From NCBI GenBank assembly GCA_050291445.1, contig JBNKJW010000241.1, positions 6,943-70,942 on the forward strand: 64,000 nucleotides of DNA, given 5' to 3'. Below are positions 1 to 16,236 of this stretch, piece by piece (position 1 is the first letter of the stretch; every line of letters starts with the position of its first letter). The translations under genes and the position numbers were made by a program. The notes below the pieces were generated by a model. The model was not told where the DNA came from. It saw nothing but the letters and a program-made list of their open reading frames with translations, and ran no database searches. Source of the DNA: Bacteroidales bacterium. GTDB taxonomy: Bacteria; Bacteroidota; Bacteroidia; Bacteroidales; NBLH01.

Positions 1-573
1 CAAAACCCCTATTTAAAAGGGCTCAATTTTTTTACTGAGTTGTTCAATGCCATCCAGAACAATAATAGTCTTTTTATTAAATATCAGGGTTTTAATCAGC
101 CCAAACCTGATGAATATACTTTTCACCCCTGGTACTTAAAACAATTTAATAATCGCTGGTTTTTGTTTGGATGGAATGATAAATACCAGGATTTAAGCAA
201 CATGCCCATTGACCGAATCCTATCAATTAATGAGTCCAAAACCACCTATTTACCAAACACGAAAATTGATTTCGAAGAATATTTCGAAGACCTTGTTGGA
301 GTTACAATAAAACCAGGTGCCCAATTAGAAAAAGTAATTATAAAAGTCAAAAATAAATTATGGCCTTATATTGTAAGCAAACCAATCCATGGCTCTCAAA
401 AAGTTAAATCTAGAAATGAATCAGAAACAATCATTGAATTAAACGTAATCATCAACTATGAATTTAAATCTCTTTTATTTTCTTACATGGATGGCATTGA
501 AATCATAGAGCCGGTGAGCTTAAGAGAAACATTTAAAGCGGTATCAGAAAACATATTTTTAAAGTATAAATAA
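1..573 (+). CDS. WYL-domain transcriptional regulator, C-terminal part (5' end upstream of window)
   Basis: The frame is open from nt 1, with no stop before the TTG at 40 used by the ORF track. Contains LFIKYQG...FHPWYLKQFNNRWFLFGW...MPIDRILSI (WYL-domain signature) followed by a WCX-like tail (GIEIIEPVSLRE). The HTH would lie outside the window. Confidence 0.75.
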   Translation, partial: QNPYLKGLNFFTELFNAIQNNNSLFIKYQGFNQPKPDEYTFHPWYLKQFNNRWFLFGWNDKYQDLSNMPIDRILSINESKTTYLPNTKIDFEEYFEDLVGVTIKPGAQLEKVIIKVKNKLWPYIVSKPIHGSQKVKSRNESETIIELNVIINYEFKSLLFSYMDGIEIIEPVSLRETFKAVSENIFLKYK

Positions 574-637
574 CTTGTGCACTTATGTTGCATACATTAA
601 TATCATTTTTGCTGTGTAATTTTAATATAATACCATC

Positions 638-2446
638 ATGACAACACAGAAATTAATTGATAACCTAATATTAAATGAAAATGCTTATTTCTTTACAAAG
701 ATTAGATCTGGACTACTTAGTAAAGCACTCATTGAAAGAACCTTTAAGGAGGCTTCATTGGAAAAAGCAGGAAACTTCCTATTGAATAAAGTTAAACAGA
801 CAATTCAGGTTGATGGCCAAAACATAGAGTATTCAATCTGCGTGTTCAAATATTCAAAAAAACCTTCCTTTATTAAAGAGGAAGTTGCTAATTGGTATGA
901 AATAAAGTTGGCATACATTGTCATTGTTGATTTTGATTCTTATGTTGCCATATCAAAAAGAAATATTTCAGGAACAAAAGAATTATATAAAAAAATATTT
1001 CCAATAGATTATAAAACAATGTCGTCCCTTTTTATAAAGGAATCAACTGCAATTGAGAAACTATCTATGAACAACATGAATGTTTCAGATAATGCTGTTC
1101 GACAAAAAAGCATGGAAGCAATTGACTTAAAAGAAAGTGTCTCAACCTTTGGATTGCAAAGTTATATATTGAGTAACATAAGATTAAATAATGACGATGA
1201 CAAAGTGTCCCTATCTCTCAATTCATCACGAATAAATAGATTTGGCCGGAAAAACAATCTTAATTTCTTTACCTCCTGGTCAAAAGTGATAATTGATAGA
1301 ATAATAAACTTTACCGAAACAAATAATTTTATTTCATCATTTGCCCGTCCTTTGAATTTTGAAGATGAGAGTCAATCATTGAAGCCAATTGCTGTTCTAT
1401 TTCTTTTCACAAAGCTTTATGATGCTTATGAAGCAGGAAAAATTGAATCTACAAAAATTATACTTGAAGATATTGAAAGAGATATTGATTTAGTCTCAAT
1501 TCTGGATAATTTTTCAAGACTTATTAAGATTAATGAATTAAAACGCGGCAAAAGTAATTCATATTTTAAAGTAGATACTTCGATAGTAAATGACTTGACT
1601 GTTTCAATTAATCAAAAATCAATATCATTACGTTCACCAAAATTAAAGAATGTTATAATAAAATTCTCTGATGAAACAGAAATCTCAATAATCGAATATT
1701 TTAATAGATATAGTTGCTTTATAATAAATTTTGACAGAGTTGAACTCGTTTATAGTCACAGAAAACTTTTTAAGGATAGTCGTCTTTTAGGAAATACAGA
1801 GAATTTCCTAAAAGTATTTAAACCATACGGTGAACTTGACAATGTGACTAGTGAGAAAGGTTCAATAAACAAGTCTTCTACTGAGTTTTCATCTGAATCA
1901 ATTTTTGGATTCGTTGAGAATGAATTTCTAAATGACTCGCAATATTTTATTTGTGATGATTTAGGTCGGGAATGGGCAGACCATATTGGTTTGTATGATG
2001 ACAGCATTTCTTTTTTTCATTCAAAATATAAAGACTCTGAATTTTCGGCTTCAGATTTTCAGGACATTGTAGGCCAAGCGCAAAAGAATTTGGGAAATCT
2101 AAGTCCTGTAGATAATCAATTTCAAAGCAAAAAAGAATTGTGGGACAGAAATTATGTCTTAAAAGGCACTGAGTCAAAGATTTCAAGAACCCGAAAAGGT
2201 AGTTCTTCAGAGCAAGCAGTAGACTATTTTAAAGAATTAAAAACATCTCTAAACATAACAAAAAGGGTATATCTTGTCATAAACTTTATTTCTAAAAGTG
2301 AATTATCAGATAGACTTGATAAATTAAAAAGAGATGAATCGTTCAAAGAAAGAAATGAAGTAATCCAAATTTTATGGTTTATTTCATCGTTAATTTCAAG
2401 TTGTTATGAAGTTGGTGCTGAATCATATATTATTTGTAAACCTTAA
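638..2446 (+). CDS. hypothetical 602-aa protein, no family recognised (candidate defence-island gene)
   Basis: Long uninterrupted ORF 64 nt after the WYL gene on the same strand. The only suggestive motif is FICDDLGREWADHIGLYDDSISFFHSKY near the C-terminal third (possible degenerate nuclease-like acidic/Lys cluster). Followed by a hairpin. Confidence 0.6.
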   Translation: MTTQKLIDNLILNENAYFFTKIRSGLLSKALIERTFKEASLEKAGNFLLNKVKQTIQVDGQNIEYSICVFKYSKKPSFIKEEVANWYEIKLAYIVIVDFDSYVAISKRNISGTKELYKKIFPIDYKTMSSLFIKESTAIEKLSMNNMNVSDNAVRQKSMEAIDLKESVSTFGLQSYILSNIRLNNDDDKVSLSLNSSRINRFGRKNNLNFFTSWSKVIIDRIINFTETNNFISSFARPLNFEDESQSLKPIAVLFLFTKLYDAYEAGKIESTKIILEDIERDIDLVSILDNFSRLIKINELKRGKSNSYFKVDTSIVNDLTVSINQKSISLRSPKLKNVIIKFSDETEISIIEYFNRYSCFIINFDRVELVYSHRKLFKDSRLLGNTENFLKVFKPYGELDNVTSEKGSINKSSTEFSSESIFGFVENEFLNDSQYFICDDLGREWADHIGLYDDSISFFHSKYKDSEFSASDFQDIVGQAQKNLGNLSPVDNQFQSKKELWDRNYVLKGTESKISRTRKGSSSEQAVDYFKELKTSLNITKRVYLVINFISKSELSDRLDKLKRDESFKERNEVIQILWFISSLISSCYEVGAESYIICKP

Positions 2447-2468
2447 TAGTAAGAAAATGCGCTATTAG

Positions 2469-2524
2469 TCAGGCGTAAGCCAAGTCCCCCATTTTGGGGG
2501 CAGAAAAGCTTTGCTGGTGCCTGA
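2469..2524 (+). terminator. compound hairpin downstream of the 602-aa gene
   Basis: ccccc-atttt-ggggg (2486-2500) nested inside tcaggc (2469-2474) / gcctga (2519-2524). No clear U-tract. Confidence 0.35.
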
Positions 2525-2629
2525 TCACATTGTGTTCCTTAACATAAAACAAAATATGATATCAAAATGACCAACTATCTTCCATCCAGCTTTAAAAGTT
2601 TCTACCTTTAGCCCTCTAAACAAAAAAAT

Positions 2630-4216
2630 ATGATAACCGGAGAATTAAAGTCAAAAATAGATCAAATTTGGAACGTATTCTGGACAGGTGGGGTCACCAA
2701 CACCATTACAGTGGTGGAGCAGCTCACCTATCTCATTTTTATTAAAGATTTGGACAACATTGAAACCTTAAACGAGTTAAAAGCCAAGCGCGGTTTTAAA
2801 TACACCCCCATCTTTAACAAAGAGCAACAACATTTCCGTTGGAAAAACCTAAAAGAAATGGATGTGGCTCAACGTCACACCATTTTTTCCAATACAATAG
2901 ATGGTATCTTCCCCTTTATACGTGAATTAGGCAAAGATAAAAGCCTGTTTGCCACGCACATGCGAGGAGCCACCTTTGGAATTTCCAAACCGGCAACGCT
3001 TGACCAGGTAATGGAAAAACTCGAAGCCATTGACATGAGTGACCAGGACACCAAAGGCGACATTTACGAATACCTGCTCTCAAAATTGGAAGGAGGAGGC
3101 ACCGCAGGCCAGTTCCGCACCCCAAGGCACATTATAAAGATGATGGTTCGTTTAATGCAACCTACTTTGGATGATATCATTGCCGACCCGGCATGCGGTA
3201 CAGCTGGTTTTTTGGTAGCCTGCAAAGAATACATTGACAAGCACTACGATGTAACCGAAATTGACAAAAATTCAGAGCACATCAACAAGCACATGTTCAA
3301 TGGCATGGAGTTCGATGCTACCATGCTGCGCATTGCATCCATGAACCTGTATTTGCATGGAGTAGAAGAACCCAACATTATTGATGTAGATGCCGTAAGT
3401 AAAGACAACACCATTGCCGAAACTTACACCTTAATTTTAGCAAATCCGCCATTTAAAGGCACCATTGACAAAGAAAGCATTGCCACCGGCCTGAAAAATG
3501 TAACCGACACCTCAAAAACCGAACTTTTGTTTCTGGCCTTAATGCTTCGCCAGTTAAAATCAGGAGGACGCTGTGCAGTAATTGTGCCCGATGGCGTATT
3601 GTTTGGCAATGGCAAAGCCCACAAATCCATTCGCGAAGAAATCATTGCCAACAACAAGCTGGAGGCTGTTATTTCTATGCCCAGTGGCATATTTAAACCC
3701 TATGCCGGGGTAAGCACTGCCATTTTAGTTTTTACCAAAACAGGCACAGGCGGCACCGATAAGGTTTGGTTTTACGACATGAAAGCCGATGGCAAATCCC
3801 TCGACGACAAGCGTAACCTGCTGATAAGCGAAGAAATTTTCGACAGCTTTGTAATGACCACCGGCATTAGCCAGGAAGAAGCCGACAAATTGCACGACAA
3901 TTTCAACCTGCCAGACATTATCACTCGTTTTCGTTCCCTGAGCGCGGTCACTGAGCGAAGTCGAAGTGAAGCCGAAGGGAGCGGAGCCGACTCCCGGTCA
4001 TCGAGCGGAGTCGAGATGAACCGCAAACGCACCGACCAATCCTTCCTCGTACCTTTCAACGAAATCAAAGAAAACGAATGGGATTTATCCATCAATAGAT
4101 ACAAGGAAATTATATATGAAGAGATTAAATTTGACAGACCTGAGGAAATAATAGGACGTATTAAAAAGTTAGATGATGAAAGATTAAAATTAATTCAAAC
4201 TCTTAGCAATATTTGA
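2630..4216 (+). CDS. hsdM: type I restriction-modification system, DNA methyltransferase subunit M
   Basis: HsdM_N-like N-terminus, AdoMet motif DPACGTAGFL, catalytic NPPF (aa 272-275, nt 3443-3454), and C-terminal FLVPFNEIKENEWDLSINRYKE typical of HsdM. Confidence 0.95.
   Translation: MITGELKSKIDQIWNVFWTGGVTNTITVVEQLTYLIFIKDLDNIETLNELKAKRGFKYTPIFNKEQQHFRWKNLKEMDVAQRHTIFSNTIDGIFPFIRELGKDKSLFATHMRGATFGISKPATLDQVMEKLEAIDMSDQDTKGDIYEYLLSKLEGGGTAGQFRTPRHIIKMMVRLMQPTLDDIIADPACGTAGFLVACKEYIDKHYDVTEIDKNSEHINKHMFNGMEFDATMLRIASMNLYLHGVEEPNIIDVDAVSKDNTIAETYTLILANPPFKGTIDKESIATGLKNVTDTSKTELLFLALMLRQLKSGGRCAVIVPDGVLFGNGKAHKSIREEIIANNKLEAVISMPSGIFKPYAGVSTAILVFTKTGTGGTDKVWFYDMKADGKSLDDKRNLLISEEIFDSFVMTTGISQEEADKLHDNFNLPDIITRFRSLSAVTERSRSEAEGSGADSRSSSGVEMNRKRTDQSFLVPFNEIKENEWDLSINRYKEIIYEEIKFDRPEEIIGRIKKLDDERLKLIQTLSNI
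3938..4020. repeat. GC-rich in-frame mini-insertion inside hsdM with two related ~22-nt units
   Basis: cggtcactgagcgaagtcgaag (3944-3965) and cggtcatcgagcggagtcgaga (3994-4015) lie 50 nt apart. The local composition is clearly GC-richer than the flanks. Encodes SAVTERSRSEAEGSGADSRSSSGVEM in the variable linker before the conserved C-terminal HsdM helix. Confidence 0.5.
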
Positions 4217-4217
4217 T

Positions 4218-5414
4218 ATGAATAATCAAGTTAAAATAGATGATTGCTTTGATTTTGTCAGAAATGGTCTATCGATAAAACAGGAGAATGGCAAAAAAGG
4301 AATACCAATAACAAGGATTGAGACAATTTGGAATTCTAATATTGATATAAATAGGTTTGGGTATGCAGATATATTTGATATCGATAAATACTCTTCTAAT
4401 TTATTATCTGTTGGTGATTTATTAATGACTCATATTAATAGCCCAAAGCATCTTGGTAAATGTGCAATTTATGAAGGTATTCCAGAAAAGCTGATACATG
4501 GAATGAATTTACTATGCCTAAGACCATCAGAAAGTTTATTCCCCAAATATGCCTTTTACTTCTTCAATTCAAATAATTTTAAATCAAAAATTCCAAAAAT
4601 AAGCAATCAGTCTGTTAATCAAGCAAGCTTTTCAGCAGGTAAGCTTAAGGAACTCAAAATCCCCCTCCCCCCCCTCCAAACCCAAAAAAAGATTGCCCAA
4701 ATCCTCGACCAGGCCGATGCCCTGCGCAAAAAGACACAACAAATTATCGATGAATACGATAAACTCGCCCAATCCATCTTTTTGGATATGTTTGGGGACC
4801 CGGTTACTAATCCGAAAAGGTGGGAGAAAAGACTTTTAGGAGATATTACAAACCTTGTTACAGATGGTAAACATGGAGACTGCAATGATGAAGAAAATTC
4901 TGGTTATTATTTCATTAGTGCTAAAGATGTAAATAATTCAACAATTAACTATTCTAATGCAAGGCAAATAGTAAAAAAAGAGTTTGAAGAAGTTGATAGA
5001 AGAACAAATCTTCAACCAGGTGATTTAGTTATGGTAAATACTGGTGCAACTATTGGAAAGATGGCAATTGCAAAAAATATTCCTGAAACCAGAAAAACAA
5101 CTTTTCAAAAAAGTGTAGCTGTAATAAAATGTAAGGAAGAATTAATTAGAAGTATTTTTTTGAAATATGTATTTCTATTAAGAATAAACACATTTGCTAA
5201 TAGAGGTTCTGGATCAGCTATAAAAAACCTTTTATTATCAGAAATGAGAAGGTTTAAAATTATTGTTGCTCCTATTGAACTCCAAAACCAATTTGCAGAA
5301 AAAATAAAACTCATCGAACAACAAAAAGAACTGGCAAAACAAAGTTTAAAAGAGAGTGAGGATTTATTTAATGCACTGTTGCAAAAGGCGTTTAAGGGGG
5401 AGTTGGTAAAATAG
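4218..5414 (+). CDS. hsdS: type I restriction-modification system, specificity subunit S
   Basis: Starts 1 nt after the hsdM stop. Two variable TRDs are separated by the conserved spacer LPPLQTQKKIAQILDQADALRKKTQQIIDEYDKLAQSIFLDMFGDP, with a second conserved helix at the C-terminus (ELQNQFAEKIKLIEQQKELAKQS...LLQKAFKGEL). Confidence 0.9.
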   Translation: MNNQVKIDDCFDFVRNGLSIKQENGKKGIPITRIETIWNSNIDINRFGYADIFDIDKYSSNLLSVGDLLMTHINSPKHLGKCAIYEGIPEKLIHGMNLLCLRPSESLFPKYAFYFFNSNNFKSKIPKISNQSVNQASFSAGKLKELKIPLPPLQTQKKIAQILDQADALRKKTQQIIDEYDKLAQSIFLDMFGDPVTNPKRWEKRLLGDITNLVTDGKHGDCNDEENSGYYFISAKDVNNSTINYSNARQIVKKEFEEVDRRTNLQPGDLVMVNTGATIGKMAIAKNIPETRKTTFQKSVAVIKCKEELIRSIFLKYVFLLRINTFANRGSGSAIKNLLLSEMRRFKIIVAPIELQNQFAEKIKLIEQQKELAKQSLKESEDLFNALLQKAFKGELVK

Positions 5415-5505: not shown

Positions 5506-6111
5506 ATGGAAACAAACTTTAACAATGAAATTTTCCCAACTGAAAAATTCAAAACTGAGAGTGAGTATATTGCCTCTTTAATTCAAACCATTGATTCTAT
5601 CGAAACTGATATACAAAAGAGAGCAAACACTCTGATAAAACTGGAAACTTTTTATGAAAAAAGAGAGGCTGATGAAAAACGCATGGCCAGGCTTGATTTA
5701 TTTAAGAAAGAATTTGGTGAATTAAATGTTACAGACAAGAAAGGAAAAACCAAAAAATACGAAGGCCTTTATATTTTTATTGATAAGGACAAACCAGTAT
5801 ATGTAGGTATTTCCAGAAATATTATTTCTCGTTTACGAAATCATGCGTGGGGCAAAACTTCTGTCACTTCCTCTTTAGCTTATTTAATGGCAAAACAAGA
5901 ACATGGGAACTTAAATAAGGATATTTACAAGGACAACATAAACGAAATAAGGGAGAAATATCTCGAAAAAGTTCGGGAATTTAAGTTGTATATCTATCCA
6001 TTTAAGGGACAGGAGAATACTGAAACTTCTGAGTATTACTCCCTCCAACTTTTGGAGGTATTACTTTCTGTTAGATTAAAAACTTGTTGGAACACATTTA
6101 AAACCCATTAA
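5506..6111 (+). CDS. GIY-YIG nuclease-domain protein with N-terminal coiled-coil region
   Basis: EGLYIFIDKDKPVYVGISRNIISRLRNH (aa 86-113) fits the GIY..YIG..R..H pattern. First gene of the coupled five-ORF run. Confidence 0.6.
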   Translation: METNFNNEIFPTEKFKTESEYIASLIQTIDSIETDIQKRANTLIKLETFYEKREADEKRMARLDLFKKEFGELNVTDKKGKTKKYEGLYIFIDKDKPVYVGISRNIISRLRNHAWGKTSVTSSLAYLMAKQEHGNLNKDIYKDNINEIREKYLEKVREFKLYIYPFKGQENTETSEYYSLQLLEVLLSVRLKTCWNTFKTH

Positions 6112-6113
6112 AT

Positions 6114-7265
6114 ATGTATTTTTTCTCCGAAACTGACCCTAATTATCGTATCAAAGGCTCCAGAGATCCATTGGGTTTTCAAAGCCTGTGGGCGGCTGCC
6201 GGTCATAAAGCAGTAGCTCATCTTTCAACGGTTTCGGCCAACCTGCGTGATTTTATGATTTTGGCTTATGCCACCTACTTTTATGGAAACAGAAATGAAA
6301 GTTATTTTCTGAATTTCTTTTTAAAATTTGAGCAGGTTTGCGCCTATGCCCGCAAAATATATCTGCCAGCAGAGGGTTTCAATGGAATCGATTTTGTAAA
6401 TAAACGGAAAGATGACCCCAGTTTTTTTATCTCTTTAAAGCCATCGGACACACTACTTAGCAATCAGCGCGCCTATGGCATTTATGGTAAATACATTCGT
6501 CCTACGCGCGACATGGGTTTTACCAGGGCCGAAGAATTTAATTCAGTAATGGAACAGTCTCTGTCTAAAACGAACAAATTGGCTGTTCTTCGCTTTGTAG
6601 AGCAATTGCTGAATAATGATAGAACAGAAATTGTCAAAGATGAACTTAAGCCAATGGCTGATTTATTAAGCCAATTAACCCAACCGGAGAAAGAATTATA
6701 TCGGAATTATCTTTTAAAAGTTCCTGACAGCAATCATCCTCAAAACAATTTATACTCTTTAGTAGAAAATAACCGAAGTATTGCTGAAAGCGAATTTAAC
6801 CTGCATGCTACTGTTCAGGTTCTACAAAATCAAGAGGGCATCTCTGCCGAGTTAAACAATGCTCTTGAAAATATCAGAAATACGGATAGAGTGCTTTTGC
6901 CTTTAAATAGGTGTTTTACACACTTATTAGGCCAGTCGCAATGGACATTGAAACAAATTGAAGATGACAGCTTTATTCAGAACTTACCAAGGAGTATTAA
7001 TTATGTGTTTACCGATTCCACCATGCAGGATCTTAATGGGATATTATCGCTTAAAAGCACCGAACTAATTGACAAAATAATAGAAAGAAATGACCATGTA
7101 AAACAAGGAGGACGTGCGTGGATTAAGAAAAAAGATGGCTTATACAAAGTAATTTATGGAGAAAGCGGCCAGATACAAGCCGATATCGATTTCGAAAACA
7201 GCTATGAATTCCCCTATTTTTTAAACACCTGGTTACATCTTTACAAACAAATAGAGTTAAATTAA
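6114..7265 (+). CDS. hypothetical 383-aa protein, no family recognised
   Basis: Starts 2 nt after the GIY-YIG stop, and its own stop overlaps the next ATG (TAATG). Conserved-looking N-terminal block IKGSRDPLGFQSLWAAAGHKAV. Has only two Cys residues and no CxxC-type zinc-ribbon motif. Confidence 0.6.
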   Translation: MYFFSETDPNYRIKGSRDPLGFQSLWAAAGHKAVAHLSTVSANLRDFMILAYATYFYGNRNESYFLNFFLKFEQVCAYARKIYLPAEGFNGIDFVNKRKDDPSFFISLKPSDTLLSNQRAYGIYGKYIRPTRDMGFTRAEEFNSVMEQSLSKTNKLAVLRFVEQLLNNDRTEIVKDELKPMADLLSQLTQPEKELYRNYLLKVPDSNHPQNNLYSLVENNRSIAESEFNLHATVQVLQNQEGISAELNNALENIRNTDRVLLPLNRCFTHLLGQSQWTLKQIEDDSFIQNLPRSINYVFTDSTMQDLNGILSLKSTELIDKIIERNDHVKQGGRAWIKKKDGLYKVIYGESGQIQADIDFENSYEFPYFLNTWLHLYKQIELN

Positions 7266-9223
7266 TGGAGCAGTACGTTATTATAGAAAAGCTAAAAGAA
7301 GCAATCAATGGGCGCAAGGTAATAGCTGCGGTATTTTACACCTTTAATTTTGATGCTCGCTTTTTCGAAAACTATTTGCTGCCAATCTTTTTACCACATG
7401 TAAATTTTTCCGATAATGAAATTCAAAACACCATACTTTGGCGCAAATATGTTAACGATTTGCCCTATGTGACTGTTTATTGCGATTTTCATGCAAAAAG
7501 TGACAATGCTCCGAATTTACCCTACCTGGTAAGAACAATAGACCTTCCAGCTGTAAATGGTCACAAAGCCTGTTTTCACCCAAAAGTTTCATTTATATTG
7601 CTTGAAGATGAGTGTTTATTGGTGCTAACTGGTTCTAATAACTTAACAGTTGGTGGTTGGTGCACAAATAGGGAAATAATAGCCATTAAAGAGCTTCAAA
7701 ATGGGAGATATTTTCCATACGAGCAAAAACACCAACTCTGGGATTTTTTGAAAACTAGCAACCAACTTAATGGAGCCGATTATTCAATTGCAGAAAAAAA
7801 CATTGATGCTTTCTATAGCAAAAGGCTGCACACTGAAAATGCCGATTTCTTTTTCTTTAATTCTGCGAAAAATTCATTTATCGATTATCTAAAAAACATT
7901 ATTATAAATGATGATGATACCCATTTTGAAAAAATAGAGGTTATTAGTCCGTATTTAACCACGGGAATTAATTTAGTTAACCAATTAACAGAAATTGTAA
8001 ATAAAGAAAACATCTATTTTAATGTTCCCTATAAAAACAGTGAAGAAGCTGAGATTACACAAGAAAACTATTATGCTTTTCAGCAGGCAGGGGTAAAATG
8101 GTCAAGATTAAAGCTTAAAGAATCAGAAAAAGGCTTTCGGTTTAATCACAGCAAAATATATCGCTTAAAAACGAGTAAAAAAGCGTACACAATTCTAGGT
8201 TCGGTAAATTTCACCGAAACTGCTTGGAAGGGAAGAAAAGATAACGGAAATCTTGAAACTGCAATTGTTTACGTTGAACCACTCGAAAACTGGCAACCTC
8301 TTTTAGAGCAATTCCACAATAATGACATCATCTTTGCAAAAGAGCAGACGGATGAAACCCATGTGGATAATCGAATGGATGCCCCTGATTTAGCGTTTAA
8401 ATTGAATTGGACTGAAAGAACGCTTGAATACAATAATTTGCCCGATTTCAAATTCTCAGGGCTCATTAAATTCATTGCAAAAAACATTGAGTTAAAAGAA
8501 GGATTAAACGCGCTAAAATTAGAGGATGCAATGCTTGAAGAGCTTGCTCAAAATCCTGCCATAAGGGTGTGGCAATACCATGTTAAACGAGAGCTGATTT
8601 ATTTTCCGGTACAGGAAGGTTTTGAGAGTAAACCAATCCCGCAAAAACTTAGATTAAAGGATGGGGAGCTTATTCAATTATGGGAAAATGTTTCGATAAA
8701 AGAAGTGAACAAATCTGAAATTGCTGGCCTTATTGAAAAGTTTATTATGGCTCGCATGAATGTCGATGGAGATTTGAAAAAGGAAACAGAGCTTTCAAAA
8801 TCAACACTTAATTTAATGGCATCGCATATTAGTGCCTTAATCCGATTGGAAGAACGCATTTTTACAGCACCAAAACTAAAACGGGATTACCTGATAGCCA
8901 AGGAGTTAATTGACTACTATCTGTTTGTCGTTAATATTGATACACTTTCAGGATATCAGGATTTGCTTGACGAAATGTATCAGGAAAAGACCATTTTACC
9001 TGGGGTCTATTGGTTCTTGTTAAATGTCCTTATTAATGATTTTTACAATTACGATAAAATAAAAAAGTTCTATAAAGAGGTAGAATGTCCTGTTAATGAT
9101 TTAAAAAACAGGATTGATGTTATAACAAAAAAAAATCAAACAATCACTGACAGACTTAAAAATGAGTTAAAAGAGGATGGCCTCAACATGGATTTATTAA
9201 AATGGATTAAAAAGGAGTTGTAA
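7265..9223 (+). CDS. phospholipase-D-family (dual HKD) nuclease with ~330-aa C-terminal extension
   Basis: HKD-1 is CFHPKVSFILL..LTGSNNLTVGGW (H105/K107, nt 7577). HKD-2 is FNHSKIYRLK..ILGSVNFTETAW (H294/K296, nt 8144). Residues 325-652 have no recognisable motif. Confidence 0.85.
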   Translation: MEQYVIIEKLKEAINGRKVIAAVFYTFNFDARFFENYLLPIFLPHVNFSDNEIQNTILWRKYVNDLPYVTVYCDFHAKSDNAPNLPYLVRTIDLPAVNGHKACFHPKVSFILLEDECLLVLTGSNNLTVGGWCTNREIIAIKELQNGRYFPYEQKHQLWDFLKTSNQLNGADYSIAEKNIDAFYSKRLHTENADFFFFNSAKNSFIDYLKNIIINDDDTHFEKIEVISPYLTTGINLVNQLTEIVNKENIYFNVPYKNSEEAEITQENYYAFQQAGVKWSRLKLKESEKGFRFNHSKIYRLKTSKKAYTILGSVNFTETAWKGRKDNGNLETAIVYVEPLENWQPLLEQFHNNDIIFAKEQTDETHVDNRMDAPDLAFKLNWTERTLEYNNLPDFKFSGLIKFIAKNIELKEGLNALKLEDAMLEELAQNPAIRVWQYHVKRELIYFPVQEGFESKPIPQKLRLKDGELIQLWENVSIKEVNKSEIAGLIEKFIMARMNVDGDLKKETELSKSTLNLMASHISALIRLEERIFTAPKLKRDYLIAKELIDYYLFVVNIDTLSGYQDLLDEMYQEKTILPGVYWFLLNVLINDFYNYDKIKKFYKEVECPVNDLKNRIDVITKKNQTITDRLKNELKEDGLNMDLLKWIKKEL

Positions 9224-9226
9224 ACA

Positions 9227-12200: not shown

Positions 12201-12739
12201 GTAAAGGTCTTTTGAAATCAAAATATGATTATGACTCATTCTCCCAGTTCTATAATGGTGAAGAACTTTGCTTAAAAAGCGCAATTGGCACAACCTTCGA
12301 TGAACTTTCTTTAAAACTGAATCAAATACTTTCAGAATTATTAAAATTTGAATACAAAGTAAAACCAGAGTTTGATTTTCATGATTTGGCTATTTCCGGT
12401 ATTATGTCTGTTAACGACAGAAATGGGCCATTTAAACTTTATTTTAATCAGAAAGAACAACCAGGTCAATTCGAGTTTAAAATGAAATCGTTGTTAGGCA
12501 AAGTACAGTTACTTGGCAAAAAGTCCAATAAACAAAAACTTGAAGAAGAAATACAATTAAGAAGTGTTGGTGAAAAAATTGAATTAGAAATAAAAGAATC
12601 AAACTCATTCGCTTATCTTACTACCTCTGCTGGTTATTCAATAGCAATAAATGAAGTAGTGGATAAACTTATTAAACTGATCAAAATAACTGATGATATT
12701 GAATATAAGATAATTGGTACTGACGAAATTCCGGAATAA
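9227..12739 (+). CDS. SNF2-like SF2 ATPase/helicase, C-lobe split by a large charged insertion
   Basis: Motif I DEVGLGKT (K60, nt 9395-9409), motif II VDEAH (218-221, nt 9878), motif III LLSATP (270-275), motif IV-like KSLVFVRRI (458-466), motif V LITTDILKEGEDL (869-881), motif VI QRTGRIDR (902-909, nt 11930). A ~350-aa E/K/D-rich insertion lies between aa ~481 and ~833. Confidence 0.85.
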   Translation: MHLSEEIAKKIINLNPYPEKQIIDFDLAERQFQVILRGFNYLLQPENKFLYIGDEVGLGKTYIALGIASLLRLYSESPETYIDTILVPKENLQYKWFKEIRNFISHNYLEKDNIVKSVLNRPVGQLKDKSIKKSLAVFEKDHAQYVIYRNSSFSIASDNEEEENSIWISKLTEKLPEEQKQLFQQITKRFRNNNSLIKRAYAYLFNHTLPETDLLIVDEAHNFRHGTGKDVSIRNQTVSRMFGAVHDDEELFEYFPQLIELSKPKVKKLLLLSATPINNSLLEIKNQLDCFIPNHRFSHLPNDKEGEECINKALNEFMIRGVMNVKVNNAQYSRNGYRHEHRNGNVEMKEFSGQQILKDNATSLVLSLMQYKIIKELKLKSGNQFEMGMLAGFESFQKASSTYEDETLSSRKEKEAKDEAVLKQIIESYSETFKNYPPHPKQESLVEELFQLMIQREKSLVFVRRIASVRELERKLFKKYSDFLIEKIKKVTVGTDIESIKVLLRNYEDEFVREGIETTLDVLEERIKYDLKRDENYQPDNGESIEQIISKDLREIFYSLVDNTEINNYREEIKSHVGRKNIKQELKDIAKDLIIRKWNNILVLDEAEDEDDENTLQENYHNEERAPYFFQRFFYNEGKKFKNRSYKKDWYELNLVLLNDKYNLFDLKRKKILCQEYEFFDELVDVKKFKSLTDKTIEAIKSDLLTESEINSEFRSNTFLTELLLNLCEVEFSTWVDYHKKLISNSYYSRFLKEIDFLTEILKSIFRQGSGLLPAFIAEAKTSKKEDPRKAFISEMKDLLTGEFDFVLDEIKQVLRDYEKLVERNFDDKDKIRYNLIQQLPVAGISGHHKKDVRKSAIQFRMPGYPYVLITTDILKEGEDLHAYCKNIYHYGIAWNPSDMEQRTGRIDRVDSMAYRLIKEVEKKGLSEIPFHNKLQVFYPYLADTLEVNQMIKLFDGMDKFIEIFYNDLSATIEKNSKANVDDIVLDIPEQRKGLLKSKYDYDSFSQFYNGEELCLKSAIGTTFDELSLKLNQILSELLKFEYKVKPEFDFHDLAISGIMSVNDRNGPFKLYFNQKEQPGQFEFKMKSLLGKVQLLGKKSNKQKLEEEIQLRSVGEKIELEIKESNSFAYLTTSAGYSIAINEVVDKLIKLIKITDDIEYKIIGTDEIPE

Positions 12740-15700
12740 TGGCAACAAACTTTCAATTCTTACAATCCGAATGGCCCGAGTTTTTCCAACGCTCAGCCAA
12801 AGCCGAAAAGTTAATGATTACCGATCCGCGCACTTCATTAACCTATGCCCGCATGGCTTTAGAACTGGCTGTTAATTGGATGTACGAAAACGACCCCGAT
12901 TTGGAATTGCCATACGATACCTCTCTGAATTCCCTCATGAAACAACATGAGTTTAAAAATCAATTTGCTCACCGACTTTACAACGACATTGACATCATTC
13001 GCAAAGTAGGCAACCTGGCCATTCATAACAAGCCGGTTTCTGCTGTCGATTCAGAAAAAATAACCACCAACCTTTTCTATTTTGCAAAATGGTTTGCCAA
13101 ATCCTACACCGAAACCGATGCAATTGAAGCAGGGCTGTTTAATTACGACATCATCCCCAAAGAAGGCGAGGCAGCTTTAAGTAAAAAACAACTCGCAAAC
13201 CTTCAGCAGCAGTTCGATAAAGATTTAAAAAGCTCGCAGGAAGAACTAAAAAAGACCCTTGCACGCAACAAAGAGCTACTGGAAGAAAACGAACTACTCA
13301 AAAAGCAATTACAAGCGCAAGCAGAAAAATTTGAGGCGCAGAAAGAAATTGCCAACCACGAGGACGAAATAAAACACCCTCGTAACGAATACGAAACAAG
13401 GAAATACATCATTGATATTGCCTTGCGTGCTGCAGGTTGGGATTTGCAGGGAGTTAACGACAAGGAGTTCAAAGTGGAGCACATGCCCCTTTCAACCAAC
13501 AAATCCGGAACCGGCTATGTAGATTACGTCCTTTGGAACGATGATGGAAAACCCCTTGCTTTGGTTGAAGCCAAAAAAACTCTGGAATCAGTAAAAAAAG
13601 GAGAAAACCAGGCTCAGTTGTATGCCGAAAGTTTAGAAAAAATGTTTGGTGTGCGCCCGGTAATGTATTACACCAATGGTTTTGAAACGTATATGTGGGA
13701 CGACCAGTTTTACAAAAAATCCCGTCCCGTACATGGTTTCTATACCAAAAGCGAGTTGCAAACCATTTTTTACAGACGCCAGCACCGAAAAGACATTCGT
13801 AAACACGAAATAGATACCCTGATAGCAGGGCGTTCGTACCAAATGCGTTCCATCAAAAGTATTGCAGAGCATTTTTCAGGAAACGACAAAGCAACAGGCA
13901 AACTAATTGGAACCAATCACGGAGCCTTATTGGTTTTAGCAACAGGAACCGGAAAAACAAGAGTCTCCATTGCTTTTAGTAAATTGATGTTCGAGGCTAA
14001 CTGGGCAAAACGCATCTTGTTTTTGGCCGACAGGGTAAGTCTGGTCAACCAGGCAAAAAGGGAATACACAAAACATTTGCCTGACCATTCCAACGTAAGT
14101 TTGTTGGAAGAAAAAGAAAATACCACCACCCGTTTGGTATTCTCCACCTATCAAACCATGATGGGCTTAATTGACGAACTAAAAGACGGCGAAGAGCACT
14201 TTTACGGCGTAGGCCATTTCGATCTAATTATTTTCGACGAAGCACACCGCTCCATTTATCGTAAATACCAGGCCATTTTCGAATATTTCGATGCCTTGTT
14301 CCTGGGCTTAACTGCCACACCAAAAGACAGCATCGATAAAAATACCTACGAAATTTTTGGCTTGGCCGATAAAAAGCCAACCGATGCCTATCCGTTTTGG
14401 GAAGCAGTAGAGAAAAAGCACCTGGTAGGTTATCGTAGTATCGAAGTGCCTACCAAGTTCCAGACCCAGGGCATCAAATACAAAGACCTTTCACCTGAAG
14501 AAAAAGAAGAATTTGAAAACGAAATACTCGATGGTGAGGAAGCAACAGGCAATGAAAGGGTTGATAAAAATGCCCTGAACAAGTGGCTGTTTAATAAAGA
14601 CACAACCATAAAAACGCTGAATTACATCCTGAAAAATGGAATCAAAAAACGGGGTGGTGAAGAAATAGGGAAAACCATCATCTTTGCACGTAACCGCAAA
14701 CATGCCGAATTCCTGAAAGACATGCTGCTTGACATGGATAAAGAGCAATACAGCAATGATTATGTAAAAGTAATCACCTACAAAGAAGAAAAAGCCGAAG
14801 AATTCATTCGTCGTTTTTGTGATGATGAAGTAGAGCGTCTGCCTCAAATTACTATTTCAGTTGACATGCTCGATACAGGAATTGATGCGCCAAGCGTAGT
14901 CAACCTGGTGTTTTACAAACCAGTAAAGTCATTTTCAAAATTCTGGCAAATGATAGGCCGTGGTTCCCGCTTGCGGCCAGATTTATTTGGCCCGGGAAAG
15001 GACAAAGATAAGTTCTTGATTTTTGATTTATGTGGCAATTTCGAATTCTTCGAAGAAAACCCCGAAGGCATTGAAACAGGCATTCAAAAAAGTCTTACCG
15101 AAATTATCTTTAACCTGAAACTACAACTGGCACAATACCTGAAAGATGGAAAGCTTCAGAAAAACGAGGAATTTCAGCAATACCGCACCAAACTACTGGA
15201 TGAATTATATTCCGACATTGCAAACCTTGACAAAGACAGGTTTGACGTAAAAATGAAATTAAAAACCGTGCTCGAATACGGCAGCGATAATCGTGAACTG
15301 TGGAATCACCTGCAAAAGAAGGATGTTCAAACCATACAGGATGAATTAGCCATACTGGTAAAACCAGCAAAAGACGATACCGACTTAGCCCGTTTTTACG
15401 ACAAGTTGTTATATACACTTATCTTAAAACGCATCGAAACACCGGTTTCCGAAGTATATTTTGATAAATATGTTGGCCAGATTTCAAGAGTAGCCAATCT
15501 CTCACAAAAGCTGTTAACGAAAACCTCCATTCCAAAAGTCAGGGAAAAAGAAGACCTGATAAAAATGCCCTTAGACGAAAACTTTTGGAAATTGGATGGC
15601 ATTACCCATTTGGAAAACATTAGGTCAGGCTTGCGCGACCTCATAAAATACATCGACAGAGAAGACCAGAAATATGCTGTAACAGATTTTGAAGACACCT

Positions 15701-16236
15701 TATATGAAGAAAATGTCAAAATAAAAGATTATGTAGGTAATGAGCCTCCGGCAAGTTACGAAAGCCCGTTTAAAAACAACATTCACCGATTAGAAGAAAT
15801 CATTCGAAAAAATCAGAACAACATCACCATAGGTCGCATTCGAAGCGGCCAGCAAATAACCAAAGAAGAATTACAATCATTGGAGTTGATGTTATTCAAT
15901 GAAAAACTAAAAAAGGAAGAAATCGAAAAAGAATTAGGAAAGCAGTTAGACCTTACTAAATTCATCATTGAACTAACAGGCCTAAGCGAAGAACACGTTA
16001 ACCTGGCCTTTGCCAATTTCATCAACACCTATCAATTAAATTCAGTACAAATTGAATTTCTGGAAACCATCAAACAATTCCTGACCAAAAACGGCAAAAT
16101 AAACCCCATGAAACTATACGACTCACCATTTAAAAAATACCATAACCTTGGCATCGAAGGCGTATTCAACAACGAACAAACTGATAAGATTTTTGAGTTG
16201 GTAGAGAGGTTGAATGGGGTTACTAAAGGTGCATAA
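12739..16236 (+). CDS. hsdR: type I restriction enzyme, endonuclease/translocase subunit R
   Basis: The ATG overlaps the helicase stop (TAATG). PD-(D/E)xK core GYVDYVLW..PLALVEAKK (D262, E277, K279), helicase motifs ATGTGKT, FDEAHR, TATP and QMIGRGSR, and an EcoEI-R-type C-terminal segment (NSVQIEFLETIKQFLTKNG). N-terminal helical module plus coiled coil (aa 1-215). Confidence 0.9.
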   Translation: MATNFQFLQSEWPEFFQRSAKAEKLMITDPRTSLTYARMALELAVNWMYENDPDLELPYDTSLNSLMKQHEFKNQFAHRLYNDIDIIRKVGNLAIHNKPVSAVDSEKITTNLFYFAKWFAKSYTETDAIEAGLFNYDIIPKEGEAALSKKQLANLQQQFDKDLKSSQEELKKTLARNKELLEENELLKKQLQAQAEKFEAQKEIANHEDEIKHPRNEYETRKYIIDIALRAAGWDLQGVNDKEFKVEHMPLSTNKSGTGYVDYVLWNDDGKPLALVEAKKTLESVKKGENQAQLYAESLEKMFGVRPVMYYTNGFETYMWDDQFYKKSRPVHGFYTKSELQTIFYRRQHRKDIRKHEIDTLIAGRSYQMRSIKSIAEHFSGNDKATGKLIGTNHGALLVLATGTGKTRVSIAFSKLMFEANWAKRILFLADRVSLVNQAKREYTKHLPDHSNVSLLEEKENTTTRLVFSTYQTMMGLIDELKDGEEHFYGVGHFDLIIFDEAHRSIYRKYQAIFEYFDALFLGLTATPKDSIDKNTYEIFGLADKKPTDAYPFWEAVEKKHLVGYRSIEVPTKFQTQGIKYKDLSPEEKEEFENEILDGEEATGNERVDKNALNKWLFNKDTTIKTLNYILKNGIKKRGGEEIGKTIIFARNRKHAEFLKDMLLDMDKEQYSNDYVKVITYKEEKAEEFIRRFCDDEVERLPQITISVDMLDTGIDAPSVVNLVFYKPVKSFSKFWQMIGRGSRLRPDLFGPGKDKDKFLIFDLCGNFEFFEENPEGIETGIQKSLTEIIFNLKLQLAQYLKDGKLQKNEEFQQYRTKLLDELYSDIANLDKDRFDVKMKLKTVLEYGSDNRELWNHLQKKDVQTIQDELAILVKPAKDDTDLARFYDKLLYTLILKRIETPVSEVYFDKYVGQISRVANLSQKLLTKTSIPKVREKEDLIKMPLDENFWKLDGITHLENIRSGLRDLIKYIDREDQKYAVTDFEDTLYEENVKIKDYVGNEPPASYESPFKNNIHRLEEIIRKNQNNITIGRIRSGQQITKEELQSLELMLFNEKLKKEEIEKELGKQLDLTKFIIELTGLSEEHVNLAFANFINTYQLNSVQIEFLETIKQFLTKNGKINPMKLYDSPFKKYHNLGIEGVFNNEQTDKIFELVERLNGVTKGA

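What the first reader, a model, noticed from the sequence alone, without database searches (positions are those of the whole stretch)
1..2446. WYL regulator followed by a 602-aa orphan protein at the head of the defence island
Seen in sequence: the WYL/WCX C-terminal region (1-573, open to the window edge) is followed after 64 nt by a 602-aa ORF that I cannot place in any family. Its only suggestive element is the acidic/Lys cluster FICDDLGREWADHIGLYDDSISFFHSKYKD (roughly aa 435-465), which could be a degenerate PD-(D/E)xK-like core. The gene ends in a compound hairpin (2469-2524), so it looks like its own transcription unit. Established knowledge: WYL-domain regulators (BrxR, CapW, PafBC-type) commonly sit directly upstream of phage-defence operons and repress them. 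Inference: the 602-aa gene may be a WYL-controlled single-gene effector, or the WYL protein may control the whole downstream island.
Basis: partly seen in the sequence, partly recalled or inferred. Interest (0 to 1): 0.55.

Follow-up and report, generated by a model that had tools for sequence, protein, structure and literature searches.

The report
Untested defence candidate gene (PDC-S71)
The 602-aa gene is not an orphan: it belongs to a widespread, experimentally untested phage-defence candidate family (PADLOC PDC-S71), looks like a DNA-binding module fused to a probable nuclease, and sits as swappable cargo between a WYL regulator and a type I restriction-modification system.

Summary
"Orphan" is wrong. 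The 602-aa protein matches PADLOC model PDC-S71 over its full length (E 1.5e-214). It has about 1,000 homologue clusters, mostly in Bacteroidota. It has no Pfam, NCBIfam, PHROGs or PDB sequence match, and no paper names it.

AlphaFold models are confident. The N-terminal ~400 aa match phage RdgC-like proteins by Foldseek (E 5.7e-7). This is the RdgC/RexA/CENP-N DNA-binding fold, and the region is basic. The C-terminal ~200 aa holds nearly all invariant polar residues (E406, K407, D440, D441, E445, D448, K463, Q480, K483). It resembles PD-(D/E)xK nucleases only weakly (best E 0.03).

WYL linkage is local, not a family trait. Homologues at 82-83% identity have no WYL or restriction-modification neighbour. 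A sister contig has the same WYL gene (98%) and hsdM (94%) but carries four other genes in this slot. This WYL clade heads type I R-M arrays in 7 of 7 contexts. Operator-like GATATCATTTTT motifs lie upstream of the WYL gene and on both sides of the 602-aa gene.

Best reading: a single-gene DNA-sensing nuclease effector under local WYL control. No step of this has been tested experimentally.

The parts
1..573 (+). 3' part of the WYL-WCX regulator gene. The full gene encodes 336 aa and its start lies 438 nt beyond the window edge (L001 308-1318).
   Evidence: Pfam WYL E 1e-11 and WCX E 1.4e-5. Full gene seen on L001. No Pfam HTH hit in aa 1-150.
599..610 (+). Operator-like half-site AATATCATTTTT, matching 11 of 12 bases of the palindromes upstream of the WYL gene.
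   Evidence: L001 has 5 sites against 0.49 expected, and 0 of 200 shuffles reach 5. Background over 1.16 Mb of loci is 0.047 per kb.
617..624 (+). TAATTTTA, a 7-of-8 match to the Bacteroidota -7 promoter box TAnnTTTG, 13 nt upstream of the ATG. This is inference only.
   Evidence: Read from the sequence. The consensus comes from established knowledge of Bacteroidota promoters and was not tested.
595..2598 (+). Swappable S71 cargo cassette. The left border lies between 594 and 612, and the right border is at 2598/2599.
   Evidence: blastn of L063 against L001 shows homology on both sides (98.3% and 94.3%) with different cargo between.
638..2446 (+). 602-aa ORF, a member of the PADLOC candidate family PDC-S71.
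   Evidence: PADLOC E 1.5e-214 with full-length coverage.
638..1837 (+). N-terminal ~400 aa: beta-rich module with an RdgC/RexA/CENP-N-like fold. The aa 1-232 part is basic.
   Evidence: AF2 pLDDT 84. Foldseek against BFVD gives phage RdgC hits at E 5.7e-7 to 3.6e-4. The top PDB hit is CENP-N. Median pI 9.1, with conserved K157, R182, R198 and K205. Which S71 residues align was not reported; the N-terminal assignment is inferred.
1850..2443 (+). C-terminal alpha/beta domain (aa 405-602) carrying nearly all invariant polar residues. It is a putative metal-dependent nuclease.
   Evidence: Domain model pLDDT 94.7, pTM 0.92. Invariant residues. Weak Foldseek hits to Avs3, Nt.BspD6I, HincII, Cap4 and the R2 endonuclease.
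1916..2089 (+). Candidate active-site core (aa 427-484): E427 on a helix, D440/D441 at the end of a strand, E445, D448 at the start of a strand, K463 at the end of a strand, and Q480/K483/N484 on a helix.
2468..2525 (+). Compound G+C-rich hairpin inside the cassette. It may be a terminator or a stabiliser, but no T-run follows it.
   Evidence: No Rfam match.
2552..2563 (-). Second operator-like half-site GATATCATATTT, between the hairpin and hsdM. It is in inverted orientation relative to the site at 599-610.
2603..2610 (+). TACCTTTA, a -7-like box in the conserved backbone, 19 nt upstream of the hsdM ATG. This is inference only.
   Evidence: Sequence. The same TACCTTTA octamer follows the palindromes upstream of the WYL gene.
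2630..5414 (+). hsdM (2630-4216) and hsdS (4218-5414) of the type I R-M backbone.
12739..16236 (+). hsdR, with an N-terminal DUF4145 domain. This is the end of the island.

Best explanation
The 602-aa gene is a horizontally mobile, single-gene candidate anti-phage effector of the PADLOC PDC-S71 family.

- **N-terminal two thirds.** They are predicted to fold like RdgC/RexA-type DNA-binding proteins and probably bind DNA. This region may sense phage DNA or replication and recombination intermediates.
- **C-terminal third.** It is a compact alpha/beta domain whose invariant acidic residues and lysine (E427, D440, D441, E445, D448, K463) most likely form a metal-dependent phosphodiesterase site of restriction-endonuclease type. 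That site would cut DNA once the sensor is engaged.
- **Position in this genome.** The gene occupies a variable cargo slot between a WYL-WCX regulator gene and hsdM of a type I R-M island.
- **Regulation.** Expression is probably set by the WYL protein. It would act through GATATCATTTTT-type sites upstream of its own gene and on both sides of the cargo, and through read-through from the WYL gene.

Shown: family membership, the cargo swap, the recurrence of the motif, the fold similarity, and the conservation pattern.
Inferred: DNA binding, nuclease activity, defence function, and WYL-dependent repression.
For: **Family**
- Full-length PDC-S71 hit.
- About 600-aa single architecture across 1,046 clusters.
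- Patchy spread in Bacteroidota, plus Clostridia, Gammaproteobacteria and Chlorobiota.
- Decayed copies in L039, L043, L051 and L056.
- 29-30% GC against 35-38% in the flanking chromosome.

**Fold**
- Five BFVD hits at E <= 1e-3; three of them, and the sixth-ranked hit, are named RdgC. Probability 1.0, with 291-416 aligned columns.
- The top PDB hit is CENP-N. PMC11077077 places CENP-N's yeast homologue CHL4 in the same DNA-binding fold as RdgC and RexA.
- The N-terminal part is basic and has conserved Lys/Arg residues.
- All invariant polar residues cluster in aa 406-484 on a helix-strand-strand-strand-helix core.
- The weak top hits for the C-terminal domain are enriched in PD-(D/E)xK nucleases.

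**Context**
- The sister contig L063 has the same backbone with different cargo.
- Two of the four L063 cargo proteins match other PADLOC defence candidates: PDC-M04A (E 1.1e-15) and PDC-S39 (E 1.1e-26).
- WYL heads R-M arrays in 7 of 7 contexts.
- The operator-like motif is enriched, with both in-window copies in the 247 nt of non-coding DNA flanking S71.
- No terminator-like site lies between the WYL gene and S71.

**Prior**
- Four of eight other PADLOC candidates (PDC and HEC) protected E. coli when tested.
Against: - No experiment exists for PDC-S71.
- The RdgC similarity rests on Foldseek alone. TM-scores are low (0.28-0.38 by target length). The solved RdgC (2OWL, 2OWY) and RexA (8TWQ) structures were not in the PDB top 50.
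- hhalign against RdgC and RexA profiles gave nothing. Pfam RdgC does not hit any of 66 family members even at E <= 10.
- No PD-(D/E)xK match is significant: best E 0.029, TM 0.33. RecA and adenylate-kinase folds are interleaved among the hits.
- The canonical (D/E)xK triplet reads H461-S462-K463.
- Immediate neighbours of homologues are a mix of mobile-element, defence and housekeeping genes. Enrichment near defence genes was not quantified.
- The operator-like sites next to S71 are half-sites only.
Confidence: 0.5

Rival explanations
1. S71 is an accessory or guard component of the type I R-M system, in the manner of PrrC with EcoprrI. It would work only together with HsdMSR.
For: It lies directly upstream of hsdM on the same strand. 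PDC families were defined by being embedded in type I R-M, BREX or DISARM systems. HsdM lies within five genes of S71 in 4 of 57 loci.
Against: Homologues at 82-83% identity have no R-M neighbour. Most of the 57 loci have none within five genes. The sister backbone functions with different cargo in the same slot.
Confidence: 0.1
2. S71 is a DNA-metabolism protein of mobile elements, an RdgC-like recombination or replication modulator with a processing nuclease, and not an immune gene.
For: RdgC-like fold. Tyrosine integrases occur in 9 of 57 loci, and an integron-cassette protein lies next to it in L003.
Against: There is no conserved mobile-element partner gene. No homologues were found in IMG/VR viral contigs. 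The same slot in the sister strain holds other defence candidates. The gene is catalogued by guilt-by-embedding.
Confidence: 0.15
3. S71 is a defence or conflict protein, but its C-terminal domain is not a nuclease. It could be another metal-dependent hydrolase or transferase, or a nucleotide-binding switch.
For: No structural match to a nuclease is significant, and P-loop-like folds are interleaved among the hits. The canonical (D/E)xK triplet is absent. An additional invariant SEKG motif (E406, K407) is not part of the classic nuclease core.
Against: The weak hits recur on PD-(D/E)xK enzymes from five different families. Four invariant acidic residues and one lysine on a helix-strand-strand-strand-helix core are typical of that superfamily. 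The local DxD-like match to ABO glycosyltransferases fades when a more diverse profile is used.
Confidence: 0.2

Closest known systems
PADLOC phage defence candidate PDC-S71 (Payne et al. 2024, bioRxiv 10.1101/2024.01.29.577857)
   Same: Full-length HMM match, E 1.5e-214. Single-gene system found beside or inside a type I R-M locus.
   Different: The family is only a prediction with no assigned fold, mechanism or test. Here the gene lies between the regulator and hsdM, not between hsd genes.
RdgC (PDB 2OWL, 2OWY) and lambda RexA (8TWQ): the RdgC/RexA/CENP-L/N DNA-binding fold
   Same: Foldseek similarity of the S71 model, presumably its N-terminal ~400 aa, to phage RdgC-like models and to CENP-N. 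The N-terminal surface is basic. RexA is the sensor of a classical phage-exclusion system.
   Different: No sequence or profile similarity. TM-scores are low. S71 carries an extra C-terminal enzyme-like domain. No RexB-type membrane partner was seen next to it (gene order; not searched for specifically).
Single-protein sensor-nuclease defence effectors with a PD-(D/E)xK domain (Shedu SduA, Cap4, the Avs3 nuclease domain)
   Same: A non-catalytic sensor region fused to a small domain with an Asp/Glu/Lys site. Avs3 and Cap4 are among the best weak structural hits.
   Different: No PADLOC or Pfam model of these families matches S71. The motif reads D448...H-S-K463 and is not canonical. The sensor fold is different.
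WYL-domain defence regulators (BrxR, CapW, PafBC-type)
   Same: WYL plus WCX domains. Two palindromes lie just upstream of its own gene. It is the first gene of same-strand defence arrays.
   Different: No Pfam HTH hit in its N-terminal 150 aa. The ligand, repression and operator binding are all untested. This clade is tied to type I R-M arrays, not to BREX or CBASS.

Membership tests
PADLOC PDC-S71 | Match to HMM PDLC05077 over its full length | tested here: met
   E 1.5e-214, 712 bits; aa 6-602 against model positions 3-589 of 589.
PADLOC PDC-S71 | Anti-phage activity | not testable with these tools
   No paper holds the name. It was not among the candidates tested.
PD-(D/E)xK nuclease superfamily | alpha-beta-beta-beta-alpha-beta core fold with a significant structural match | tested here: inconclusive
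PD-(D/E)xK nuclease superfamily | Catalytic D...(D/E)xK motif on strands 2 and 3 | tested here: inconclusive
   D448 at the start of a strand and K463 at the end of the next strand are invariant. The (D/E) position is H461 and is not invariant. Other invariant acidic residues (D440, D441, E445, and E427 at more than 90%) could substitute.
RdgC family (Pfam PF04381) | Sequence or profile match to RdgC | tested here: not met
   No Pfam hit in any of 66 members at E <= 10. hhalign probability 0.2.
RdgC/RexA fold class | Structural similarity to RdgC-type proteins | tested here: inconclusive
   Foldseek against BFVD gives E 5.7e-7 to 3.6e-4 at probability 1.0 for phage RdgC models, and the top PDB hit is CENP-N. 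TM by target length is 0.28-0.38, and 2OWL and 8TWQ are not in the PDB top 50.
RdgC/RexA fold class | Dimeric ring or horseshoe that binds DNA | not testable with these tools
   No multimer prediction or biochemistry was available. The only support is the basic N-terminal region.
Lambda Rex system | RexA sequence homology and an adjacent RexB-type membrane partner | tested here: not met
   hhalign against RexA gives probability 0.08. The downstream gene is hsdM.
WYL-type defence regulator (BrxR/CapW-like) | WYL domain plus C-terminal WCX domain | tested here: met
WYL-type defence regulator (BrxR/CapW-like) | N-terminal (winged) helix-turn-helix | tested here: inconclusive
   No Pfam HTH at E <= 0.1. 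The PADLOC WYL model PDLC01457 covers aa 22-319.
WYL-type defence regulator (BrxR/CapW-like) | Sits at the head of defence genes, with palindromic sites at its own promoter | tested here: met
   7 of 7 contexts. Palindromes at L001 226-263. A comparable motif repeat occurs in L064.
WYL-type defence regulator (BrxR/CapW-like) | Represses the downstream genes | not testable with these tools
   Needs reporter assays, EMSA or RNA-seq.
Type I restriction-modification system | HsdM, HsdS and HsdR present on one strand | tested here: met

The most novel reading that the evidence does not exclude
S71 is a one-polypeptide counterpart of Rex-type exclusion. An RdgC/RexA-fold DNA sensor would recognise phage replication or recombination intermediates and directly switch on a fused, non-canonical restriction-endonuclease-like effector. 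In this genome a WYL regulator would keep it silent, in a hot-swappable cargo slot at the head of a type I R-M island.
Probability: 0.3. Interest if true: 0.75.

Novelty: new variant of a known kind. Interest (0 to 1): 0.55.

Why it matters
- **The family.** PDC-S71 is one of 145 catalogued but untested defence candidates, and nothing was known about its fold. An RdgC/RexA-like DNA-binding module fused to a probable nuclease gives a concrete hypothesis, with named residues to mutate.
- **Link to Rex.** It would connect the fold of the classical lambda Rex sensor to a widespread bacterial family.
- **The cargo swap.** Two near-identical WYL-hsdM backbones carry different cargo. This is a natural experiment showing a regulator-headed slot where defence genes are exchanged. 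It bears on how defence islands are built and co-regulated.

Tried and rejected
**Searches that found nothing**
- Pfam, NCBIfam, PHROGs and PDB sequence searches on S71.
- Pfam at E <= 10 on 66 diverse members: no recurrent family.
- hhalign against RdgC and RexA.
- IMG/VR viral contigs: no homologue.
- Rfam on window 1-3000.
- A repeat-element reading of the hairpin: it occurs once in the window.

**Leads rejected**
- A local match of YFICDDLGKEWADHIGL to the DxD region of ABO glycosyltransferases gave E 0.002 with profile A1. It fell to E 0.28 with the more diverse profile A4, so I treat it as chance.
- A 1,018-aa homologue (P0208) carries an N-terminal peptidase S41 region with a signal peptide. 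This is probably a gene-call fusion and says nothing about function.
- A conserved WYL partner is rejected.

**Limits**
- Foldseek of the whole model against the PDB gave no hit at E <= 1e-3.
- The supplement of Payne et al. is cut off before any PDC-S71 entry.
- The last protein search, run with an RdgC profile, returned only close enterobacterial RdgC and added no diversity.
- Neighbour genes in the 57 genome loci come from my own simple ORF caller, so short genes may be missed.
Full report
**1. Observation**

The first 573 bases encode the C-terminal 190 residues of a regulator with a WYL domain (E 1e-11) and a WCX domain (E 1.4e-5). A 64-nt spacer follows, then a 602-aa ORF at 638-2446. 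A compound G+C-rich hairpin lies at 2468-2525. Its MFE is -32.3 kcal/mol with z -2.9 against dinucleotide shuffles. It is the strongest hairpin among 47 homologous downstream regions, occurs once in the window and has no Rfam match. No T-run follows it, and the terminator scan did not list it.

The island continues with these genes:
- hsdM (2630-4216)
- hsdS (4218-5414)
- a GIY-YIG protein (5506-6111)
- a three-gene PDC-M27-like module (6114-12739)
- hsdR (12739-16236)

Housekeeping genes follow.

**2. The 602-aa protein is not an orphan**

Pfam, NCBIfam, PHROGs and PDB sequence searches find nothing. PADLOC model PDLC05077, named PDC-S71, matches from end to end at E 1.5e-214.

PDC systems are 145 untested "phage defence candidates". 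Payne et al. derived them from genes embedded in type I R-M, BREX and DISARM loci. No paper in the library names PDC-S71. It was not among the eight PADLOC candidates (seven PDC and one HEC) tested in a later study, of which four protected E. coli.

The family is large. There are 358 close hits and 1,046 clusters at 50% identity, nearly all about 600 aa with one architecture. Members occur in 57 loci from as many species-representative genomes. Most are Bacteroidota, with single cases in Clostridia, Idiomarinaceae and Chlorobiota. Fragmented or remnant copies exist in L039, L043, L051 and L056. None was found on IMG/VR viral contigs. The WYL and S71 region is 29-30% G+C, against 35-38% in the flanking chromosome.

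**3. Anatomy of the protein**

The AlphaFold2 model of the whole protein has pLDDT 84.3. The model of aa 385-602 alone has pLDDT 94.7 and pTM 0.92.

I aligned 246 sequences reaching down to 25% identity. The invariant residues are F235, F365, Y372, E406, K407, F423, D440, D441, E445, D448, K463, A471, Q480, K483, N484 and W580. E427, K498 and R519 are conserved above 90%. Every invariant polar residue therefore lies in aa 406-484. They sit on a helix (422-430), strand (436-439), strand (449-452), strand (456-463), helix (471-483) core.

Foldseek of the C-terminal domain against the PDB gives no significant hit. The weak top hits recur on restriction-endonuclease-fold enzymes:
- Avs3 nuclease (E 0.029, probability 0.66, TM 0.33)
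- Nt.BspD6I
- HincII
- Cap4
- the R2 endonuclease

RecA and adenylate kinase are mixed in among them. The classic (D/E)xK triplet reads H461-S462-K463, so any nuclease site would be non-canonical. A local DxD-like match to ABO glycosyltransferases disappeared with a more diverse profile.

**4. The N-terminal two thirds**

Foldseek of the full model against predicted viral structures gave five hits at E <= 1e-3. Three of them, and the sixth-ranked hit, are named "recombination-associated protein RdgC". Their E-values run from 5.7e-7 to 3.6e-4 at probability 1.0, covering 291-416 columns, which is almost the whole target. The output does not say which S71 residues align. I assign the match to the N-terminal ~400 aa because the C-terminal domain has its own separate fold.

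The best hit in the PDB search had been CENP-N. The RexA structure paper (PMC11077077) reports that RdgC, lambda RexA and the kinetochore proteins IML3 and CHL4 share one DNA-binding fold. IML3 and CHL4 are the yeast CENP-L and CENP-N. Two libraries therefore point to the same fold class.

Residues 1-232 are basic. The median pI is 9.1, rising to 10.0 for aa 140-206, and K157, R182, R198 and K205 are conserved.

Caveats:
- TM-scores are low (0.28-0.38 by target length).
- 2OWL, 2OWY and 8TWQ were not in the PDB top 50.
- Profile comparisons with RdgC and RexA show nothing.

**5. Context and the WYL question**

In 57 genome loci there is no conserved neighbour. The 106 immediately flanking proteins include these:
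- integrases (5)
- HTH_3 proteins (4)
- UvrD/GajB-like helicases (3)
- Shedu SduA (2)
- PDC-S69 (3)
- many housekeeping genes

WYL is not among the families hit by two or more of them. HsdM lies within five genes in only 4 loci. The closest homologues (82-83% identity) sit beside unrelated genes. One is in another defence cluster that includes a PLD-SNF2 protein and a BrxC/BrxD-like ATPase.

The WYL protein behaves differently. It belongs to a very large and tightly conserved 336-aa clade. In all seven contexts examined it is the first gene of a same-strand array. The array usually runs WYL, an ~815-aa N6-methyltransferase/HATPase protein, a ~390-aa protein, HsdM, HsdS, and in some contexts HsdR. 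The first downstream gene starts 0-75 nt after the WYL stop codon.

Contig L063 has a 98%-identical WYL gene and a 94%-identical hsdM. A 6.2-kb block of four main genes replaces S71 there. Two of its four proteins match other PADLOC candidates, PDC-M04A (E 1.1e-15) and PDC-S39 (E 1.1e-26). The S71 cassette therefore spans window ~595-2598 and includes the hairpin. The WYL gene belongs to the R-M backbone, and S71 is exchangeable cargo.

**6. Regulation**

Two palindromes, AAAT(A/G)GATATCATTTT, lie 22 nt apart, 45-82 nt upstream of the WYL start codon on L001. Allowing one mismatch, GATATCATTTTT occurs five times in L001, against 0.49 expected; none of 200 shuffles reaches five. The 64-kb window holds only two copies. 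One is at 599-610, just upstream of S71. The other is at 2552-2563 on the opposite strand, between the hairpin and hsdM. The background rate over 1.16 Mb of loci is 0.047 per kb, and other S71 loci do not carry the motif upstream of the gene.

A more distant WYL locus, L064, likewise repeats its own upstream motif in the spacer after the WYL gene. No terminator-like site separates the WYL gene from S71.

From this I infer, without a test, that the WYL protein regulates its own gene and the cargo next to it. This would follow the pattern known for BrxR- and CapW-type regulators.

**7. Verdict**

The sequence features are real. "Orphan" is wrong, and "conserved WYL partner" is wrong. "Defence-island cargo with a conserved acidic/lysine core" is right.

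The most likely mechanism is a single-chain DNA-binding sensor fused to a non-canonical metal-dependent nuclease, expressed under local WYL control. I put confidence at about 0.5. No step has been tested experimentally.

The family is already catalogued as a candidate. The fold assignment and the cargo-slot polymorphism appear to be new, since no paper in the searched library names the family.

Noticed in passing
window 5506-12739: A GIY-YIG protein (5506-6111) and a three-gene module are embedded between hsdS and hsdR. The module is a 383-aa protein, a 652-aa PLD-like protein and a 1,170-aa SNF2-like helicase. The three proteins match PADLOC PDC-M27A, B and C at E 5e-6, 1.4e-23 and 1.3e-69. 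This is a second untested defence candidate in the same island.
   Followed up: partly
window 12739-16236: HsdR carries an N-terminal DUF4145 domain in addition to the usual HSDR_N, ResIII and EcoEI_R_C domains.
   Followed up: no
L063 7537-13718 (sister contig): The same WYL-hsdM backbone carries different cargo in place of S71: DUF3800 (PDC-M04A-like), DUF3825, a 426-aa protein and a 617-aa PDC-S39-like protein. The slot is a hotspot for exchange of defence genes.
   Followed up: yes
L064-L067, L078-L080 and the context of P0284: The usual cargo after this WYL clade is an ~815-aa N6-methyltransferase fused to an HATPase_c region (some also with a specificity-like region), followed by a ~390-aa protein with no Pfam hit or only a weak or faint S1CSD-TOTE-2 hit. 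These come ahead of hsdM and hsdS. This recurrent two-gene module is uncharacterised as far as these searches show.
   Followed up: partly
L001 226-263 (519-482 nt before window position 1): Two GATATC-centred palindromes 22 nt apart sit just upstream of a TACCTTTA -7-like box and the WYL start codon. They are a candidate autoregulatory operator. The same TACCTTTA box precedes hsdM at window 2603-2610.
   Followed up: partly
L039, L043, L041, L051, L056: S71 copies are split into two or three ORFs, truncated, or reduced to C-terminal remnants in the middle of contigs. Gene decay is recurrent in the family.
   Followed up: no
L003 9344-9649: In Prolixibacter bellariivorans the gene upstream of S71 matches the integron cassette protein Hfx_Cass5 at E 1.4e-15. 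S71 may lie in an integron-like cassette array there.
   Followed up: no
window 3001-4000: hsdM is much richer in G+C (46.5%) than its neighbours (29-35%). This suggests a mosaic origin for the island.
   Followed up: no
P0208 (1,018 aa): One family member has an N-terminal peptidase S41 region with a signal peptide ahead of the S71 part. It is probably a fused gene call.
   Followed up: partly
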